In this document: positions 833-49,157 of the stretch, one piece after another | Position numbering within the stretch: position 1 is the stretch's first letter | Layout: each line of letters opens with the position of its first letter | Virus record (IMG/VR): IMGVR_UViG_3300020123_000589 | Coordinates: 64,001 to 128,000 of that record | DNA from: a virus | DNA: 64,000 nucleotides | Reading direction: 5' to 3' (one strand) | The notes under the pieces: model-generated | Told to the model about the DNA's origin: nothing | The model's database searches: none | The model's input: the letters and a program-made list of their open reading frames with translations, nothing else | Position numbers and translations under genes: made by a program

Positions 833-3800
833 ATGGCACTATTTAAACGTGGGACTATTCTAAAGATTAATAAAACAGCCGCATCTGCCACAGAGCTTAT
901 TATTGATCGTCCTCTAACTGAAGAAACAAAAGTTGTTGAGGGTAAGAATCCTGAATTTTTATATTTTGTAGCAAAAGCCATTGCCGCTGGTGACGAAGGT
1001 CCATTGGGCAAGAATGGTTCTAGAGAGTATAATTATAACGGAAATGGCGATTATTTTCCTAAGAAAGAAATTGAAGGTGCTTACCAAACTTTTATAGGAA
1101 AGGGAATTTATCTCGACCACAATGCTTCAAGTGTTATGTATTCTGTTGGGAAGATTATTGATGCTTTTCCTACGGTAGATCCAGACAATAAAGAATGGAG
1201 CATTTCCTGTCTTGCTAAGATTGACAGAAAGCTTCATCCTGAAATTGCTCGTAAAGTTGAAACTGGTGAATTGAATACCGTTTCCATGGGTTGTTCTTGT
1301 GGAGAATCCAAATGTTCAGTTTGTGGAACAATCCTTCGAACGGACGATGACCCTAAGTGTGAACATCTATCTCCTGGCAAATTGATGCACGAGTTTCAAG
1401 CAGAAATTGATATTCCAGAGTATGGAATTAATAAGGGCCAAACAGTAAAAAGTTTTGCAATTAATTCACAAATCAACTTCAATGAGTTGAGTTTGGTTGG
1501 TGTACCTGCATGGCCCCGCGCATTTGTTACCACAATTTTAAGTAACTTAAAGGCTAATATCAGTAAGAAAGCTTCTTTAACCAAAGAAGAACAACTTGAT
1601 TTAGTAGCGCAGTTTGAAAAGCTTGTAGACACTTTAGATTCTACTACAAAAGAACAGGTCAAAGCCGAATTTTGCGGTTGCCCAATTGTCAAGGAGAATA
1701 ACATGTCCGATACCCCCCAGAAACAATCGAACGATGAAGTAACAGATTTATTGAAGAAAGTGAGTGCTTATGAGATGGAGAAGCTTGAGAATTATATCCA
1801 ACATAAGACTCGCAAAGCAGAGGCAACCGCTGCCGCTGATACAAAGACCAATGATTCCAATTGGATGAATGGTATACTTGAGAAAGCAAAAAATACGGCT
1901 GCTGGTAAAGTATTTGCAAGAACGATTCAGCGATTGGCTGAGGAAGAAAAGAAGCCAGAGTTTGTATATGAGAAGGAAGCTACGTCCGAAACTACTCTTA
2001 AACCAGTTAAGAAATCTTCTCTCACAGCCATGTTTACAGTAAATAAAGAAGAACCAATGAAATCTTCTTGGGCTCTTTTAGACGGTAGTGATAAAGTTAT
2101 TTTAGATGCTTCACTCAATGAGATTTGGGGAGATCAGTTTGAAGCTAATCAAGATTTTGCAGTTAGTGAGGAATATGGTAGAGCAATTGCCGCACGATTT
2201 TTGGACCCTAAACTTGGTGGCGTTGAGAAACTTGCCGACCTTTGGGATGTTTCATATAAATTAAATAAAGAGGCTGACATGAATAAATCATCCGAACACG
2301 GCGAATTTTTCAAAGCTAAAGATTTCTTTGTACCTGGAAGTGATTCTTCTAATAAATACACTCCAGAGGAGATTAAACATATGCAAGAAAAAGAACACAC
2401 AGAAGCCAAAGGCAAAAAGGTTGAAGCTGGGCATATAGATGAAAAATTTGATATTACGGAAGGTAAGGGAAAGCTCTTTGATGCAAAGAATTTTTTTGAA
2501 CCTGGGTCAGATTCCTCAAATAAATGGAATGATAAACGAGTGAAGATTGAATACTCAATTAGCAAACCTGCTGGTGAGTTTTTCAAACCAGGCTCTGATT
2601 CCTCAAATAATTATAAAGCCACGGATGTAAAAATGGAATACAACATTCCAGGTAAAGCACCAGAAGCAGGTCAGAAAGGCCCAGCAGCCCCTAAACATGA
2701 AGATATTAAAACTACGTATGATTTTAAGAAACCTGAAGGGGAATTCGTTAATACAAATAAGAAAACCAAGCTTGACGAAGAACATGCCAAATCCGAAGAA
2801 AAAATTAAAACAGGATACAAAGGCGATTTGATGTACGATGAAGAGAAAAAGCTGGACGAAAAGGGTGGAAAGAAAGAATCAGCCCTTAAATCAGCTGCTA
2901 AGACTGTAGGTGATTCTCCTGAAAGTTCCGTAAAGGGCGATATCTATCCAGAAAAGAGTCCAAAGACTTCTGGAGATGAACCAGAGTCTTCTTATAATAA
3001 AACAGCCAAAACCGTTGGTGATGCTCCAGAAGGTTCTGTTGAAGAAAGTCAGTATCCCAAAGCTTCTGAGCCTAATAAGGACCCAGAGACATCAGCAAAA
3101 GATATGGAATATAAGCACGAAAAGAACATGACAAAAACTCCTGATTCTTCAGTTCAAGAGAAAATGCCAGCACCCGCTAAATCAGATAAAGATCCTGAGA
3201 CATCTGTAAAAGATACAAAATTTGAAAAACATCCTGATTTAACTAGTAAGCCTGAAACTTCCTCAAAAGAAGATCAGTACCCTACACCAGCTAATCCAGA
3301 TAAAGAACCAGATTCTTCTGTTCAAAAGGGTTCCAATCTAAAAGTTGCTAAAACTCCTGCTGGCTGGGAACACGCAGTTCGTGAGCTTAAGAAAACCGAT
3401 GTTGATAATCCATGGGCAGTAGTTAATTGGATGAAAGATAAAGGATATACACCACATAAGAAATCAGAGCTAGATATGAAAGCTGATGCTGAAATGTGTG
3501 ATAAGTGTTCAATGCCTCTTCATGAATGCGCTTGCATGGCCGCTCAGGAAAATATGGCTCCATCAATGGATGCTCCTAAACCAGAAATGGGTTCTGCCTT
3601 CGATAAAGTTGAAGAGAAACTTACAATTGGCGATGGATATGATGCTTCTAAGGATAAAGAAACTAAAGAGATTATCATTTCTAAAGATGGTAAGGAAATG
3701 AAGCGTCTCCCAGATGGTTTCGGTTCTGATGTTGCTTCTGTTACAAGTCTTCTAAAAGCTGTTCTTGGTCTTCCAACAACAGAAGAGAAGAAAGATGAAA

Positions 3801-4387
3801 AACCAGGAGAAACACTTTCTCCAGTTGAAGAAACTGTTGAAAAAGTAGAAGTTCATCCCGAAATGTCTTCTCCCTCTGAAATGCCTTCTATGAAAGCTTC
3901 TGCTCTAGAAGTAGAATTAAATAAGAAAGCTGCTGAACTAAAAGCTAAGGAAGAAGAGATTATTAAGAAAGAAACGGCTATTCTTGCAAAAGAAGCTGAA
4001 ATTAAGGCTGATAAATTCCAAAAAGCCGTCGCTTCCCGCACAGATCGTTGCCGCAGAGTGATTGAAGCTATGCTTGATAAAAACGTCCTATCAATGGATG
4101 ATGCAGTATTGAAGGAAAAACTACAAGAAGGAACTTATCTTTTGGATGCACGTAAAGCTGCCCTTGATCACGCCATTAGTGCAAAGCTAAAAGAACTTAT
4201 GGCATCCAATGATGTTGAATTGGCTGCAATAGAGAAAACTGTAGATGGCATTAAGCTTCCTGAACAGGAAGTTTCTAAGAAAGCCAATCGTATTCCATTT
4301 GTTAAATGGGATGCAATTCCAACAGAAGATGATGAAATTAAAGGCATCTTTGATCAAATGGGAAAACGCAGTCACTGGAATCAATAA
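833..4387 (+). CDS. prohead (capsid maturation) protease fused to a long scaffold region
   Basis: N-terminal NGNGDYF...YLDHN...GKIIDA...VSMGC...FNELSLVGVPA motifs; charged, repetitive, coiled-coil C-terminus; upstream of capsid genes. Confidence 0.8.
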   Translation: MALFKRGTILKINKTAASATELIIDRPLTEETKVVEGKNPEFLYFVAKAIAAGDEGPLGKNGSREYNYNGNGDYFPKKEIEGAYQTFIGKGIYLDHNASSVMYSVGKIIDAFPTVDPDNKEWSISCLAKIDRKLHPEIARKVETGELNTVSMGCSCGESKCSVCGTILRTDDDPKCEHLSPGKLMHEFQAEIDIPEYGINKGQTVKSFAINSQINFNELSLVGVPAWPRAFVTTILSNLKANISKKASLTKEEQLDLVAQFEKLVDTLDSTTKEQVKAEFCGCPIVKENNMSDTPQKQSNDEVTDLLKKVSAYEMEKLENYIQHKTRKAEATAAADTKTNDSNWMNGILEKAKNTAAGKVFARTIQRLAEEEKKPEFVYEKEATSETTLKPVKKSSLTAMFTVNKEEPMKSSWALLDGSDKVILDASLNEIWGDQFEANQDFAVSEEYGRAIAARFLDPKLGGVEKLADLWDVSYKLNKEADMNKSSEHGEFFKAKDFFVPGSDSSNKYTPEEIKHMQEKEHTEAKGKKVEAGHIDEKFDITEGKGKLFDAKNFFEPGSDSSNKWNDKRVKIEYSISKPAGEFFKPGSDSSNNYKATDVKMEYNIPGKAPEAGQKGPAAPKHEDIKTTYDFKKPEGEFVNTNKKTKLDEEHAKSEEKIKTGYKGDLMYDEEKKLDEKGGKKESALKSAAKTVGDSPESSVKGDIYPEKSPKTSGDEPESSYNKTAKTVGDAPEGSVEESQYPKASEPNKDPETSAKDMEYKHEKNMTKTPDSSVQEKMPAPAKSDKDPETSVKDTKFEKHPDLTSKPETSSKEDQYPTPANPDKEPDSSVQKGSNLKVAKTPAGWEHAVRELKKTDVDNPWAVVNWMKDKGYTPHKKSELDMKADAEMCDKCSMPLHECACMAAQENMAPSMDAPKPEMGSAFDKVEEKLTIGDGYDASKDKETKEIIISKDGKEMKRLPDGFGSDVASVTSLLKAVLGLPTTEEKKDEKPGETLSPVEETVEKVEVHPEMSSPSEMPSMKASALEVELNKKAAELKAKEEEIIKKETAILAKEAEIKADKFQKAVASRTDRCRRVIEAMLDKNVLSMDDAVLKEKLQEGTYLLDARKAALDHAISAKLKELMASNDVELAAIEKTVDGIKLPEQEVSKKANRIPFVKWDAIPTEDDEIKGIFDQMGKRSHWNQ

Positions 4388-4593: not shown

Positions 4594-5082
4594 ATGGCTA
4601 TTACTATATGGAAAGAAGTAAATCGTTCACCTGGAGCACCAGTTCTTTCGGGAACTATCTCTGGTGGAACAGTTCTAGCTTGGGACCCAGCGAATACACA
4701 GAAGGTTCTTCCTTTTGGTTCCGCTACATCCACATCTCAGCCTTACGGCTTGGCTTGTGAATCCAACGTAATTCCTCCACTACAACCCGCATCCGGCCTC
4801 GTTGCTGGCCAGGGTTTTGACTACACCAACTTCAACCGCGATGGTTTGATGGGTGCATTCATTAACGGTGGAGAATTCCAGTTGTATGATGATGGTCTAG
4901 GCGCAGGAGCCCCTTACGAAGCAGGAACATATACCGTTGGTCAGCTAGTTTATGCCGATATTACTGCCACTACCGCAGCTAATATTACAGCAACAGCTGG
5001 TTCTAACGTTGCAATTGGTTCTGTTACATATGTGGATCAGAGCGTTAACCCAACACAGCTAAGAATTAAATTGTCTATCTAA
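4594..5082 (+). CDS. capsid decoration/cement protein
   Basis: 162 aa, Gly/Ala/Thr-rich, between scaffold and capsid gene; strong RBS AAGGAG. Confidence 0.65.
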   Translation: MAITIWKEVNRSPGAPVLSGTISGGTVLAWDPANTQKVLPFGSATSTSQPYGLACESNVIPPLQPASGLVAGQGFDYTNFNRDGLMGAFINGGEFQLYDDGLGAGAPYEAGTYTVGQLVYADITATTAANITATAGSNVAIGSVTYVDQSVNPTQLRIKLSI

Positions 5083-5152: not shown

Positions 5153-6121
5153 ATGTCAGAACAAGTTACCAAAACCGCTTCTCCTGATGACATTTATGCC
5201 GCAGGGCTTAGTGCCGCTCAGGTTGAAGAAAAGCTAACTCGTTTGATGAACAGCCCAGGCGGATTGCAGAAGATTGCTCAGCAAATGTTGAGCCCTCTAA
5301 AGCGCGAACTTCTATATGAAGGTCGTATTCGCCAGTTGTTCCAGACGTACAAACTCGCTCTAGGCGAGGAAGCCGTGTTTGACGCAGACTTAGACGTTCC
5401 AGCAGCATCCATTTCCGTTCATGGTTTGCCACAGGAACTACAGGTCGAAGCAGATCGTATCCGCGTCGAAACTGGCCCCCTAGCAACCCGTCCCTTGATC
5501 CGATGGAACGAATCCAACTTCCGAAAGTACGATGTTCTTAATCGTACCCAAGAACGCGCAAAAGCTTCCATTATGCTTCAAGAAGACACAAAAGGTTTTC
5601 AGCTCATTGACTTTGCTGCTGGTCTAACAAATCAGACCCCAGTAAATTCACTATTTGGAACCTCTGCTGCAACCAATAACCCAACCGTGCTACCTGCGAC
5701 TGGTAAATTGGACATGCAGACACTAGTAACAGGTATCGTTACACTACGTTCAAAGTTGCTCGTAGCTTCAAAGATTTATTTGAACCCACTACGAACCGCT
5801 GATCTCATGCTCTTCAACACAACCACATCAGGAACAGGCGGAGCCGGAATTTTCGCTCCTAACTTCCAGGATATGGCATTGAAAGCAGGTCGCGTAGGTG
5901 GAATCTGGGGCGTTGATGTCCTAGAGTCCGTCGTTGTTCCTACAGCTAACACATACGTTCTAGCTCCTGCGGATTATCTTGGCGTTCTCGCCGTTCGTAC
6001 TGATATTTCCGTCGAGACAATGAAAGATGTTAACCAGATGGCCGACATTTTCGCAATCTGGGAAGATATCGGCTTCCTCATTCGCTACGCTAAATCGATA
6101 GTAAAAATCGTAGTTTCTTAA
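5153..6121 (+). CDS. major capsid protein (HK97 fold); unspliced reading. Exon 1 is 5153-6091
   Basis: 322 aa, strong RBS, codon bias typical of high expression, GRVGGIWGVDVLES and terminal WEDIGFLIR motifs, position in head module. Confidence 0.85.
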   Translation: MSEQVTKTASPDDIYAAGLSAAQVEEKLTRLMNSPGGLQKIAQQMLSPLKRELLYEGRIRQLFQTYKLALGEEAVFDADLDVPAASISVHGLPQELQVEADRIRVETGPLATRPLIRWNESNFRKYDVLNRTQERAKASIMLQEDTKGFQLIDFAAGLTNQTPVNSLFGTSAATNNPTVLPATGKLDMQTLVTGIVTLRSKLLVASKIYLNPLRTADLMLFNTTTSGTGGAGIFAPNFQDMALKAGRVGGIWGVDVLESVVVPTANTYVLAPADYLGVLAVRTDISVETMKDVNQMADIFAIWEDIGFLIRYAKSIVKIVVS

Positions 6122-6333
6122 GTCCCTTGGCGTAGTAAAATTGGGCCGTATCGGTGAAACTCTTACCAAGTAATGTTGGAGACAATACCGAGGAAAGACT
6201 TGAAAAATTTCAAGTATCCGTAGAGACTAAACGCCCGACTCCGAAAGGATGAAGTTATAGTCCGACCTTCACAGAAATGTGAAGAGGTTTCCAGAAATGT
6301 GAAATCCATCTCGAAAGAGAAAGTAACAAATCG
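6092..6333 (+). mobile_element. group I self-splicing intron without endonuclease ORF, in the major capsid gene
   Basis: Exon CUACGCU pairs with IGS GGCGUAG (6129-6135) ending in a U.G wobble. CCCUU pairs with exon 2 AAGGG (P10). R element GUAGAGACUA and S element AAGUUAUAGUCC form P7. Terminal G at 6333. Confidence 0.9.
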
Positions 6334-6363
6334 AAGGGCATTGTTAAAATTGTCGTTAGCTAA
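6334..6363 (+). CDS. major capsid protein exon 2 (KGIVKIVVS*)
   Basis: In frame after joining 6091 to 6334: AAG GGC ATT GTT AAA ATT GTC GTT AGC TAA. Confidence 0.88.
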   Translation, partial: KGIVKIVVS

Positions 6364-6417: not shown

Positions 6418-6446
6418 TTGATAGACTCATAAAAGTATGTTATAAT
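6418..6446 (+). promoter_or_regulatory. sigma70-type promoter, probably leaderless transcript
   Basis: TTGATA-17 bp-TATAAT with extended TG; ATG 6 nt downstream. Confidence 0.7.
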
Positions 6447-6452
6447 TAATAT

Positions 6453-7232
6453 ATGAAGCGAAAATGCTTAGGTTGTTCAATTGAGTTTGAAGTTACCTCC
6501 AAACAATTAGATAAAAGATTTTGTACTCAAAGATGTTGGGGTAAGTATCAAACTGAACATAAATTAAATATGAAGGCTGAATTACGAAATCGCCCAACGG
6601 TAGATGAAGTAAAGAAAGCTTTTTCAGAGCAAAGAATAAAATTGGTACAATCTTTAACTTTCGTTGATTTTGCTTTATCTGGTGTTTATATTATCATTAA
6701 TATTGTTAACAATATGATTTACATAGGTTCTTCCAAAGATATTGAAGCTCGATGGAGAGAACATGTGCATAAATTTTATGGAAATAGACACGAAAATGAT
6801 AAATTGCAGAAAGCTTGGAACAAATATGGGGAAAAGGCTTTCCAATTTAAAATTTTAGAAGTTGTTCAAGAGAAAAACCTTGTAGTCCGAGAACAATATT
6901 ATTTAGATTTGTATAAACCTTACGAAAGACATATCGGCTACAATTTATATAAAACAGCTTTTAGTCCTTTAGGAAATGTTTGGACGGAAGAACAGAAAGC
7001 AAATTTAAGAGTCGTTCGACATAATCAAAAACCTAGAAAATTATATTGTAAATGGTGCAAAACGGTTTTTATTGTAAAAGGCCAAAACGCTAAATTTTGT
7101 TCACATAAATGTCGAGACAAAGCCAGATGGCAGAAAGATAAAGCTAAAAACCATTCAGGAAAACGTAAGACATTAAAAGAACTATTTGATTCTTTAACTG
7201 ATGGTGAATTAGCAACAATTTTGGAAGACTAA
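6453..7232 (+). CDS. free-standing GIY-YIG endonuclease with flanking Zn-binding motifs
   Basis: SGVYIIIN...IYIGSS...RWREH...REQYY; CxxC...FCxxxC motifs at both ends. Confidence 0.88.
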   Translation: MKRKCLGCSIEFEVTSKQLDKRFCTQRCWGKYQTEHKLNMKAELRNRPTVDEVKKAFSEQRIKLVQSLTFVDFALSGVYIIINIVNNMIYIGSSKDIEARWREHVHKFYGNRHENDKLQKAWNKYGEKAFQFKILEVVQEKNLVVREQYYLDLYKPYERHIGYNLYKTAFSPLGNVWTEEQKANLRVVRHNQKPRKLYCKWCKTVFIVKGQNAKFCSHKCRDKARWQKDKAKNHSGKRKTLKELFDSLTDGELATILED

Positions 7233-7243
7233 GTTTCTTTTGT

Positions 7244-7315
7244 GGGCTTGTAACTCAGCGGGAGAGTGCTTGCTTTGCAAGCAAGAGGTCGCAGGTTCAA
7301 ATCCTGTCAGGTCCA
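7244..7315 (+). tRNA. tRNA-Ala(UGC)
   Basis: Canonical cloverleaf, G3.U70 pair, anticodon loop TTTGCAA; CCA not encoded. Confidence 0.95.
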
Positions 7316-7327
7316 CTGAAGAAATTT

Positions 7328-7629: not shown

Positions 7630-8450
7630 TACTCCCCCATAGGTTTCGACCGTGGGCGCAGGGTTTCTGAATTGGGCTCGTTCCCAATAGTAGGAGCAAC
7701 TCTTGCATTGGGGCTCTGAAATATTTCATCCCCTAACAATTTTAATAATACATCGAGGGACAACAAGATTGCATTGAGGCCAGATTATTTGATACATGGA
7801 AAATGGGTCATGCCATTGGAAGTGACGGTTCAACCTCTCTTAGCCTTTACGGGCTGACCTCTGATCCTCTTGGAATGGGCGTAAACCCGAAACCCCAAGA
7901 AGGATGATTTCGCACCGAGAGGTTTTGGTAAACCTAGTTGTCTCATAAGCAACTGATTTGTGGTTCGATTCCACACGGCGCAACCATATAAAGTGAGAAC
8001 GATAAGCGTTCTAGTAGGGAAAGCGGCCTATGCATGGGCAACTTAAATATGCTACCCTCTTCATCTAGACTGCTCACTTTTATTAATATGCAACCCGTAG
8101 CTTTTTAGCTACGCCGCAAGGATAGAGCTTAAGCTCAGTCATATCCTGCATTTTAGCCAGTTAGTCCTGCAATGTGGGGCCGATGTTCGAAGGAAGATTA
8201 GCTTGAGCATATCTAAAGGTCAAAAGCTTTTAGAAATATGTCCTGTTGTAGGCATGGCACAATTTTGAGATGATCCCGAAAGTAATTAGGGATATGGTTT
8301 ATAACGACCCAAACGTGCGTTTAGTTGGGTGAGAAGGTGGCATCTGGAACAATTGACCAGACTAAACTTCTGTAGCGTGGTTAAGGCCGACTTAACCCCA
8401 TTTGGAGCATAGCACTGCTTAAAGGAAATATTCCGCCAACTCTCAATTCA
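7630..8450 (+). ncRNA. island of putative structured non-coding RNAs around tRNA-Met
   Basis: No long ORF, elevated GC, several multi-hairpin units closed by terminal stems and separated by AT-rich linkers. Confidence 0.55.
7911..7986 (+). tRNA. tRNA with CAU anticodon (Met; initiator-like C1:A72 mismatch)
   Basis: Anticodon loop CTCATAA, T arm TGTGG-TTCGATT-CCACA, 3' ACCA encoded. Confidence 0.88.
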
Positions 8451-49084: not shown

Positions 49085-49157
49085 GCCCGAGTAGCTCAAT
49101 TGGCAGAGCAATCCCTTTGTAAGGGAAAGGTTGTAGGTTCAACTCCTATCTTGGGCT
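49085..49157 (+). tRNA. tRNA-Thr(UGU)
   Basis: Canonical cloverleaf, loop TTTGTAA; CCA not encoded. Confidence 0.93.

What the first reader, a model, noticed from the sequence alone, without database searches (positions are those of the whole stretch)
6085..6363. Fail-safe group I intron: its 5' end re-encodes the capsid C-terminus that it displaces
Seen: the intron sits nine codons before the end of the major capsid gene. Unspliced RNA reads ...YA-KSIVKIVVS* (6092-6121, in the P1 loop just before the IGS). Spliced RNA reads ...YA-KGIVKIVVS* (6334-6363). The peptides match at 8 of 9 residues but only 19 of 30 nt. Six codons differ synonymously, including Ser TCT vs AGC. Established: group I introns normally inactivate the gene until spliced. 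Inference: both copies are under protein-level selection, so capsid is made with or without splicing. The intron could be cost-free, or splicing could act as a switch between Ser and Gly capsid isoforms. I know of no described example.
Basis: partly seen in the sequence, partly recalled or inferred. Interest (0 to 1): 0.95.

Follow-up and report, generated by a model that had tools for sequence, protein, structure and literature searches.

The report
Capsid intron carrying a spare ending
A self-splicing intron nine codons before the end of a soil phage's main capsid gene starts with its own reworded copy of those nine codons plus a stop, so full-length capsid protein can probably be made with or without splicing; related phages show the same layout at three insertion sites.

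Summary
Window 6092-6333 is a 242-nt ORF-less group I intron. Rfam scores it 47.2 bits (E 6.5e-11). P1 and P10 fit both exons, and the core shows compensatory changes. A soil metatranscriptome contig joins 6091 to 6334 exactly, on the allele that carries the intron in DNA. The intron's long P1 loop (6092-6121) reads in frame as KSIVKIVVS*. Exon 2 (6334-6363) reads KGIVKIVVS*. Related capsid genes carry the same intron family at three sites within the last 16 codons. Every such case has a same-length, in-frame, recoded copy of the displaced tail, with its stop 0-13 nt before the guide sequence. Two introns 21 and 30 codons from the end have none. Exon 2 is the native copy. The intronic copy is only 50-60% identical in nucleotides to native sequence, yet diverges in a coding pattern. 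Best reading: a selected stand-in that makes capsid output independent of splicing, probably recoded to escape the neighbouring GIY-YIG endonuclease or repeat recombination. Translation of unspliced RNA is not shown. I found no published description. Earlier unchecked notes of this scan report the same layout on other DNA (giant viruses, a rumen jumbo phage).

The parts
5153..6091 (+). Exon 1 of the major capsid gene (codons 1-313, HK97 fold)
   Evidence: ORF. tblastn hits annotated major head proteins of Bacillus phage G and cluster-C mycobacteriophages. Homologues carry PF25209. The AF2 model matches HK97-type capsids at Foldseek probability 1.0.
6084..6091 (+). 5' strand of P1; the 5' splice site follows U6091
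   Evidence: It forms 8 pairs with 6129-6136, with U6091 opposite G6129. The pairing covaries in L074.
6092..6333 (+). ORF-less group I intron, 242 nt
   Evidence: Rfam RF00028, 47.2 bits, E 6.5e-11. The consensus fold of 8 related introns has 48 pairs, 21 of them with compensatory changes. An RNA contig skips exactly 6092-6333.
6092..6121 (+). Intronic stand-in copy of the last nine codons plus stop (KSIVKIVVS*), lying in the P1 loop
   Evidence: In frame with exon 1. It matches exon 2 at 8/9 aa and 19/30 nt. It is identical in L001 and L077.
6124..6136 (+). Internal guide sequence: P10 part 6124-6128, P1 part 6129-6136
   Evidence: Complementary to exon 2 bases 6334-6338 and to exon 1 bases 6084-6091. 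It starts 2 nt after the stop codon of the stand-in copy.
6333..6333 (+). Terminal G of the intron (3' splice site)
   Evidence: It follows the 3' element AAGUAAYAG plus 3-7 nt that all related introns share.
6334..6363 (+). Exon 2: native last nine codons plus stop (KGIVKIVVS*)
   Evidence: The peptide is identical to the tail of the intronless relatives L002 and L003. Gly315 is conserved in at least 90% of homologues.
6418..6446 (+). Near-consensus sigma-70-like promoter directly before the endonuclease ORF
   Evidence: 11 of 12 hexamer matches with an extended TG. This is a consensus match only.
6453..7232 (+). Free-standing GIY-YIG homing-endonuclease-like ORF (259 aa)
   Evidence: Pfam PF01541, E 3.1e-12. 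Homologues sit at the same place after the capsid gene in L001, L074, L072 and L057, and also after some intronless genes.

Best explanation
This is a splicing-competent, ORF-less group I intron that has settled nine codons before the end of an HK97-fold major capsid gene. Its P1 loop is enlarged from the 4-8 nt I read by eye in two family members in other genes to 37 nt. The loop holds a translated, recoded stand-in for the displaced exon 2, followed by a stop codon 2 nt before the guide sequence. A ribosome that reaches the 5' splice site before the RNA has spliced reads on through the stand-in and releases a full-length capsid protein with Ser315 in place of Gly315. Spliced RNA gives the native tail. 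Translation into the P1 loop and formation of P1 exclude each other, so in a heavily translated late gene part of the mRNA is probably read unspliced. The stand-in removes the cost of that (inferred). Exon 2 is the native sequence. The stand-in has been heavily recoded at silent sites and at the conserved Ala-Lys-Gly codons. The likely reasons are to keep the exon 1/stand-in junction from recreating the target of the neighbouring GIY-YIG endonuclease, to prevent the two copies recombining, and to avoid competing with exon 2 for P10 (all inferred). Shown: the intron, its splice sites, the spliced RNA, the recurrence of the layout, and the coding pattern of divergence. Inferred: translation of unspliced RNA, function of the Ser315 protein, and the reason for the recoding.
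For: Intron and splicing: Rfam scores 47.2 bits, E 6.5e-11. P1 has 8 pairs and P10 has 5. Twenty-one of 48 core pairs show compensatory changes across 8 introns. A metatranscriptome contig joins 6091 to 6334, skipping 242 nt. All 8 of its listed exon-1 variants, and its total of 11 differences, fit the intron-carrying L001 allele; only 3 of 8 fit the intronless L002.

Recurrence: the same intron family sits at three sites (A|K, G|F, I|V) within the last 16 codons of homologous capsid genes. In every lineage the P1 loop holds an in-frame copy of the displaced tail, with its stop 0-13 nt before the guide sequence. In the six lineages where exon 2 is on the contig, the copy has exactly its length: 9, 9, 15, 16, 14 and 6 codons. 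Each copy carries the tail typical of its own lineage.

Selection: over six pairs, amino-acid identity is 52/69 and nucleotide identity 140/222. Only 15 of 52 same-residue codons are identical, against 22.6 expected. Orthologous intronic copies are 0.61, 0.61 and 0.21 identical at codon positions 1, 2 and 3.

Which copy is native: exon 2 matches intronless relatives at background level (19-20/21 and 22-26/30), while the intronic copy matches at only 10-12/21 and 17-19/30.

Importance of the tail: it is nearly invariant in about 115 homologues and is modelled as a terminal beta strand with pLDDT about 85. Ser at the Gly position occurs naturally in one intronless relative.

Controls: no capsid cluster among 120 has a truncated tail. 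Introns 21 and 30 codons from the stop carry no copy.

Background: coupled translation is held to interfere with group I folding, and in-frame stops early in introns are common (review PMC3984707).
Against: There is no direct evidence that unspliced RNA is translated or that the Ser315 protein enters capsids. The RNA support is one 289-nt contig at depth 2.7, and an intronless DNA allele of identical sequence cannot be excluded. The metagenome scan that found most of the extra cases required a long spacing between the WED codons and the intron core, so it was biased towards long P1 loops. The unbiased checks are small. The stand-in changes residues that are otherwise near-invariant, such as Gly to Ser or Ala, so it may work less well. 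The coding pattern could in part be inherited if each copy was captured from a foreign coding sequence. GIY-YIG homologues also follow intronless capsid genes, so the endonuclease-escape argument is untested. The Rfam score is just under the gathering threshold.
Confidence: 0.62

Rival explanations
1. The intronic copy is the 'inserted C-terminus' of a selfish, endonuclease-driven cassette, as in fungal mitochondrial mobile ORFs. It arrived with the element from another phage. It exists mainly to make the insertion harmless and to destroy the endonuclease target. In this reading the benefit is to the element, not an adaptation of the phage to incomplete splicing. This overlaps with the best explanation on what the copy does and differs on its origin and beneficiary.
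For: The topology is the same as in the Glomus and Allomyces hybrid genes: gene core, then a diverged in-frame C-terminus, then the mobile element, then the native C-terminus. The two copies there show about 64% nt and 91% aa identity (PMC3630166). Here the upstream copy is the diverged one and the downstream copy is native. A GIY-YIG ORF lies 90 nt after exon 2. The last 33-42 nt of exon 1 are also more diverged than the gene's background, as in a co-conversion tract.
Against: Each intronic copy carries the tail typical of its own host lineage, which is unexpected for a foreign donor. At 50-60% nt identity the donor would have to lie far outside the clade yet share its tail. The endonuclease lies downstream of both copies, not between them. 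Here the native copy is restored by splicing rather than abandoned.
Confidence: 0.22
2. The intronic copy is a functionless relic of an imprecise insertion or duplication, is not used as protein, and simply has not decayed yet.
For: Window and L001 are too close to show constraint by themselves: 0 differences in 30 nt against about 1.7 expected. Several otherwise invariant residues are changed in the copies.
Against: Silent sites are at or beyond saturation while 75% of residues are kept. All six lineages that include exon 2 keep frame, exact length and stop, although the intron loops elsewhere hold many indels. The layout recurs at three sites.
Confidence: 0.08
3. The P1-loop ORF is kept for RNA-level or ribosome-positioning reasons. 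It would stall or release the ribosome just before the guide sequence so that the intron can fold. The peptide itself would not matter.
For: The stop codon always ends 0-13 nt before the guide sequence. In-frame stops early in introns are viewed as an aid to folding (PMC3984707).
Against: This explains where the stop sits but not why the peptide matches the displaced tail in every lineage. The non-copying intron in L068 also has an in-frame stop near its guide sequence without any resemblance to the tail. A test for guide-sequence mimics inside the copy was not significant.
Confidence: 0.06
4. Splicing is a regulated switch between two functional capsid isoforms (Ser315 and Gly315).
For: Two products are possible. 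Four lineages share Ser (codon TCG) at the Gly position.
Against: The differences between the copies are not consistent. L076 keeps Gly, L073 has Ala, and L072 differs only Cys/Val. No regulatory element was found.
Confidence: 0.04

Closest known systems
Phage group I introns in protein genes (T4 td, nrdB, sunY type; the Yersinia phage fHe-Yen9-04 nrdB intron shares 44 nt of core at 95.5% identity)
   Same: Small self-splicing ribozyme, U.G at the 5' splice site, terminal G, in-frame stop soon after the 5' splice site, and interplay with translation.
   Different: In those introns, read-through gives a truncated product. Here the stretch before the stop re-encodes the whole displaced C-terminus, inside a P1 loop enlarged to 37-65 nt.
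Collaborative homing: an ORF-less intron plus a free-standing endonuclease aimed at the intron insertion site (cyanophage S-PM2 psbA with F-CphI; T3/T7-like phages), as reviewed in PMC3984707
   Same: An ORF-less intron with a free-standing GIY-YIG gene right next to the interrupted gene.
   Different: Cleavage specificity is untested here. The spare exon inside the intron is not part of that model. The endonuclease also occurs next to intronless capsid genes.
Fungal mitochondrial mobile endonuclease ORFs that insert together with a foreign gene C-terminus (Allomyces atp6; Glomus atp6, atp9, cox2, nad3; PMC3630166)
   Same: An in-frame diverged C-terminus lies upstream and the native C-terminus is displaced downstream. 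The copies have low nt but high aa identity. Both are associated with a homing endonuclease.
   Different: There an endonuclease ORF lies between the copies and the native copy is often left unexpressed. Here a ribozyme lies between them and removes the stand-in, restoring the native tail. The copies are only 6-16 codons long and fit inside P1.

Membership tests
Group I self-splicing intron (Rfam RF00028) | Match to the family covariance model at or above the gathering score | tested here: inconclusive
   47.2 bits against a gathering score of 50; E 6.5e-11 in a 601-nt search. The match was not listed in whole-window searches.
Group I self-splicing intron (Rfam RF00028) | P1 helix between the end of the 5' exon and an internal guide sequence, with U.G at the splice site, and P10 with the 3' exon | tested here: met
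   8-pair P1 with U6091.G6129 and 5-pair P10. Both covary with the exon sequence at four different insertion sites.
Group I self-splicing intron (Rfam RF00028) | Conserved paired core (P3-P9) kept by compensatory changes, and a terminal G | tested here: met
   48 consensus pairs, 21 with changes on both sides, in 8 introns. G6333 is the last base. The P7 pseudoknot was not modelled.
Group I self-splicing intron (Rfam RF00028) | Exons are ligated in RNA at the predicted junction | tested here: met
   One soil metatranscriptome contig joins 6091 to 6334, and its variants are those of the intron-carrying allele. It is a single contig at depth 2.7. Self-splicing in vitro was not tested.
Collaborative homing pair (ORF-less intron plus free-standing homing endonuclease) | A free-standing endonuclease gene next to the intron-bearing gene | tested here: met
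   GIY-YIG ORF at 6453-7232, conserved at this position in relatives.
Collaborative homing pair (ORF-less intron plus free-standing homing endonuclease) | The endonuclease cuts the intronless allele at or near the insertion site, and the intron protects against it | not testable with these tools
   This needs a cleavage assay. Homologous ORFs next to intronless capsid genes leave the target open.
Mobile endonuclease element with a carried C-terminus (fungal mORF type) | A diverged in-frame C-terminus upstream and the native C-terminus downstream | tested here: met
   The intronic copy is 50-60% nt identical to relatives, while exon 2 is at background identity.
Mobile endonuclease element with a carried C-terminus (fungal mORF type) | The endonuclease ORF lies between the two copies and the native copy is no longer used | tested here: not met
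   An ORF-less ribozyme lies between the copies, the endonuclease is downstream of both, and the native copy is joined by splicing.
HK97-fold major capsid protein | HK97 fold and homology to annotated major head proteins | tested here: met
   Foldseek probability 1.0 to HK97 and other phage capsids. tblastn hits major head proteins. Homologues carry PF25209. The window protein itself had no Pfam hit at E 0.001.

The most novel reading that the evidence does not exclude
These are 'exon-carrying' group I introns. Whenever this intron family settles within about 16 codons of the end of a capsid gene, it acquires in its P1 loop a translated, deliberately recoded copy of the displaced exon. Splicing in vivo would then be substantially incomplete, and virions would be mosaics of two capsid isoforms. 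The recoding would be driven by escape from the partner endonuclease. Together with the earlier scan notes on giant-virus and jumbo-phage capsid genes, this would be a general, convergent way for introns to colonise the 3' ends of the most heavily expressed viral genes.
Probability: 0.4. Interest if true: 0.9.

Novelty: new variant of a known kind. Interest (0 to 1): 0.82.

Why it matters
Group I introns in protein genes are taken to be harmless only as far as they splice. In bacteria, coupled translation is thought to limit where they can live. An intron that carries a stand-in for the exon it displaces removes that dependence. It would show how a selfish RNA can sit in the most heavily expressed, essential gene of a virus. 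It gives a natural system for measuring the conflict between translation and splicing. It links RNA introns to the 'carried C-terminus' trick of DNA-level endonuclease elements. For annotation, capsid genes of this kind look intact, so the intron and the true C-terminus are missed. The protein clusters P0001, P0013, P0017 and P0057 are such read-through products.

Tried and rejected
- Guide-sequence mimic: I asked whether the intronic copy is recoded to contain a mimic that pairs with the 5' exon. The result was not significant against random synonymous recodings (pooled fraction 0.056; single cases 0.06-0.98).
- Intron tree by insertion site: the tree is star-like, and only window plus L001 are supported. 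The window's core is nearer to the L068 intron at another site (83%) than to L074 at the same site (81%). Single versus repeated origin therefore stays open.
- Simple sliding of splice sites: rejected. All introns end in the same 3' element, with no remnant of exon 2 inside.
- Whole-window Rfam searches: the intron was not listed, so they say nothing about other introns. A motif scan found no second intron of this family in the window.
- RNA runs X19-X22: no contig covered the intron itself, so nothing can be said about unspliced RNA.
- Scans for short-P1-loop introns just after the WED codons in viral contigs: 0 hits. The sample is small.
- DNA for clusters P0017 and P0057 in ENA: not retrievable.
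- P0085 (L061): it looked like another case but is an intronless gene with a natural Ser.
- Literature: four full-text searches and two papers checked for a description of this layout found none. Subscription journals are not covered.

Full report
**What is in the sequence.** The ORF 5153-6121 (322 codons) ends ..RYA-KSIVKIVVS*, with the last nine codons and the stop at 6092-6121. A second copy, KGIVKIVVS*, lies at 6334-6363. The two copies share 8 of 9 residues but only 19 of 30 nt. Six codons are synonymous but different. The protein is an HK97-fold major capsid protein. tblastn finds annotated major head proteins of Bacillus phage G and cluster-C mycobacteriophages. Close homologues carry PF25209. 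An AlphaFold model (mean pLDDT 70) matches HK97-type capsids at Foldseek probability 1.0. Residues 316-321 are modelled as a terminal beta strand with pLDDT about 85, and residue 315 sits in the turn before it.

**The intervening 242 nt are a working group I intron.**
- A local Rfam search gives RF00028 at 47.2 bits, E 6.5e-11, for 6073-6284. This is just below the gathering score of 50.
- Exon 1 bases 6084-6091 pair with 6129-6136, with U6091 opposite G6129.
- Exon 2 bases 6334-6338 pair with 6124-6128, and the intron ends in G6333.
- An alignment of eight related introns gives a consensus core of 48 pairs, 21 of which show compensatory changes.
- In a soil metatranscriptome (X19), one 289-nt contig joins 6091 directly to 6334, skipping exactly 242 nt. 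Its exon 1 differs from the window at 11 places. The window and L001 also differ at exactly 11 places over that stretch. All eight listed variants are those of L001, which carries the intron on DNA in several assemblies. Only three of the eight fit the intronless L002.
- This is good but thin evidence for splicing in vivo: one contig at depth 2.7, and an intronless DNA allele of identical sequence cannot be excluded.

**Relatives.**
- About 115 capsid homologues at 50-99% identity end with a nearly invariant ..WEDxGFxxR(Y/F)AKGI.. motif followed by a tail specific to each lineage.
- L002 and L003 are 98% identical in protein, have no intron, and end KGIVKIVVS*, the same peptide as exon 2.
- L001 and L077 (99% identical) have the same intron and an identical intronic copy.

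**The layout recurs.** A protein with an odd tail (P0013) led to L062-L064. A pattern scan of metagenome contigs gave L072-L076. Introns of the same family, with cores 71-84% identical, sit at three sites within the last 16 codons:
- A|K: window and L074.
- G|F, 17 nt upstream: L062, L073, L075 and L076.
- I|V: L072.

In each case the guide sequence fits the local exon 1 end and exon 2 start, with compensatory differences between lineages. In each case the P1 loop reads in frame as a copy of the displaced tail. The copies are 9, 9, 15, 16, 14 and 6 codons long, exactly the length of the matching exon 2, and the stop ends 0-13 nt before the guide sequence. In L073 the contig ends before exon 2, so only its 15-codon intronic copy and stop could be read. 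Each copy carries the tail typical of its own lineage. By my reading of the sequences, two family members in other genes have P1 loops of about 4 and 8 nt. Two introns further upstream in the capsid gene of L057/L068, 21 and 30 codons from the stop, read through into unrelated peptides.

**Ascertainment.** The metagenome pattern required 66-96 nt between the WED codons and the intron core, so it could only find long P1 loops. Three checks without that bias found no counter-example. None of 120 capsid protein clusters has a truncated or scrambled tail, while four are read-through products. Two scans of viral contigs for spacings of 18-79 nt found nothing. A core-only scan found the L001 type and the distant-site L068 type. 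These samples are small.

**Which copy is native, and how the copies evolve.**
- Exon 2 matches the nearest intronless relatives at about the gene's background level: L072 18-20 of 21 nt, L074 21-26 of 30, L062 32-34 of 47.
- The intronic copy matches at only 10-12 of 21, 17-19 of 30 and 20-25 of 47.
- In the window both copies are off background: 23 and 21 of 30, against 93% upstream.
- Over six pairs, 52 of 69 residues but only 140 of 222 nt agree. Of 52 same-residue codons, 15 are identical against 22.6 expected from capsid codon usage.
- Among orthologous intronic copies at the G|F site, codon positions 1, 2 and 3 are 0.61, 0.61 and 0.21 identical. For exon 2 the values are 0.83, 0.83 and 0.44.

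The intronic copy therefore diverges like coding sequence. It is under weaker constraint than exon 2, and its silent sites are at or beyond saturation. Its replacements cluster in the otherwise invariant Ala-Lys-Gly codons. Gly becomes Ser (codon TCG) in four lineages and Ala in one, and is kept in one. Ser at this position also occurs naturally in one intronless relative, L061.

**Mechanism (inferred).** In bacteria, translation follows transcription closely. The review PMC3984707 notes that this coupling is thought to hinder group I folding. It also notes that in-frame stops early in introns are seen as a way to hold the ribosome back. Here a ribosome that passes U6091 on unspliced RNA occupies one P1 strand and ends at 6119-6121, next to the other strand. 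Translation of a transcript and its splicing therefore exclude each other at that moment. In a late gene that is translated very heavily, a share of transcripts should be read unspliced. The stand-in turns what would be a truncated protein, lacking a conserved terminal strand, into a full-length one.

The heavy recoding has three plausible causes, none tested:
- An identical copy would rebuild the intronless junction, and so the likely target of the GIY-YIG endonuclease encoded 90 nt downstream.
- Identical direct repeats would recombine and delete the intron.
- In the window, a Gly codon right after the splice site would compete with exon 2 for the P10 pairing.

**Origin.** The topology is a diverged in-frame C-terminus, then the mobile element, then the native C-terminus. 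Fungal mitochondrial endonuclease ORFs that insert with a foreign C-terminus have the same topology, and their two copies show about 64% nt and 91% aa identity (PMC3630166). That favours a cassette-like origin. Against a foreign donor, each copy bears its own lineage's tail. The intron tree is unresolved. All introns end in the same 3' element with no exon remnant, so simple sliding of splice sites is unlikely. The origin stays open.

**Rivals.** A functionless relic is unlikely, given the conserved frame, length and stop, and the coding pattern of change. A purely RNA-level or ribosome-positioning role explains the place of the stop but not the peptide. An isoform switch is disfavoured because the differences between the copies vary from lineage to lineage.

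**Novelty.** Full-text searches found no description of an intron that re-encodes its displaced exon. The library does not cover subscription journals. Earlier notes of this scan, which are AI notes I did not check, report the same layout on other DNA: giant-virus capsid genes with copies of 4-5 codons, and a rumen jumbo phage with a copy of 41 codons. I class it as a new variant of a known kind: a group I intron paired with a free-standing endonuclease, plus a spare exon in P1.

Noticed in passing
window 6418-7232: The GIY-YIG ORF (ATG at 6453) is preceded by a near-consensus promoter-like site (11 of 12, extended TG) whose -10 hexamer ends 6 nt before the ATG. This suggests its own, possibly leaderless, transcript. 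A similar TAATATATG context precedes the homologous ORFs in L001 and L068.
   Followed up: partly
window 7244-7316, 7911-7986, 48891-48963, 49085-49157: Four tRNA genes. tRNA-Ala(TGC) starts 12 nt after the endonuclease ORF, and a weaker tRNA-Met(CAT) follows.
   Followed up: partly
L057 3420-4080 (same contig as L068): This capsid gene has two introns that flank a 27-nt micro-exon (VNKMADVFA). Neither intron re-encodes the displaced sequence. The upstream intron belongs to a different subfamily.
   Followed up: partly
L065 5100-5560 (also L067, L069): Two introns of the same family lie about 285 nt apart in another, unidentified gene. The first has a short P1 loop of about 8 nt.
   Followed up: no
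L061 3940-3975: An intronless capsid gene (59% identical) naturally has Ser at the otherwise conserved Gly position (..AKSIVRIDIS*).
   Followed up: yes
window 6095-6097; L074, L062, L075 intronic copies: The Gly position is replaced by Ser with the same codon, TCG, in four lineages at two different insertion sites. Either shared ancestry of the copies or a common constraint could explain this; it is unexplained.
   Followed up: partly
window 6059-6091 and the equivalent stretch in L074, L072: The last 33-42 nt of exon 1 before the splice site are more diverged from intronless relatives (64-83%) than the 240 nt upstream (82-93%). This fits a co-conversion tract or recoding on both sides of an endonuclease target.
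   Followed up: partly
L060 3001-3044 (Yersinia phage fHe-Yen9-04, nrdB region): 44 nt of the intron core are 95.5% identical to an unannotated stretch between two ribonucleotide reductase small-subunit fragments. This is probably an unannotated group I intron with an ORF (g299).
   Followed up: no
L008-L011, L020, L021, L027, L055: Homologues of the GIY-YIG ORF also follow intronless capsid genes, so the endonuclease is not strictly linked to the intron.
   Followed up: partly
window 833-4387: A 1184-codon ORF two genes upstream of the capsid gene has no Pfam match. A 162-codon ORF (4594-5082) between them also has none.
   Followed up: no
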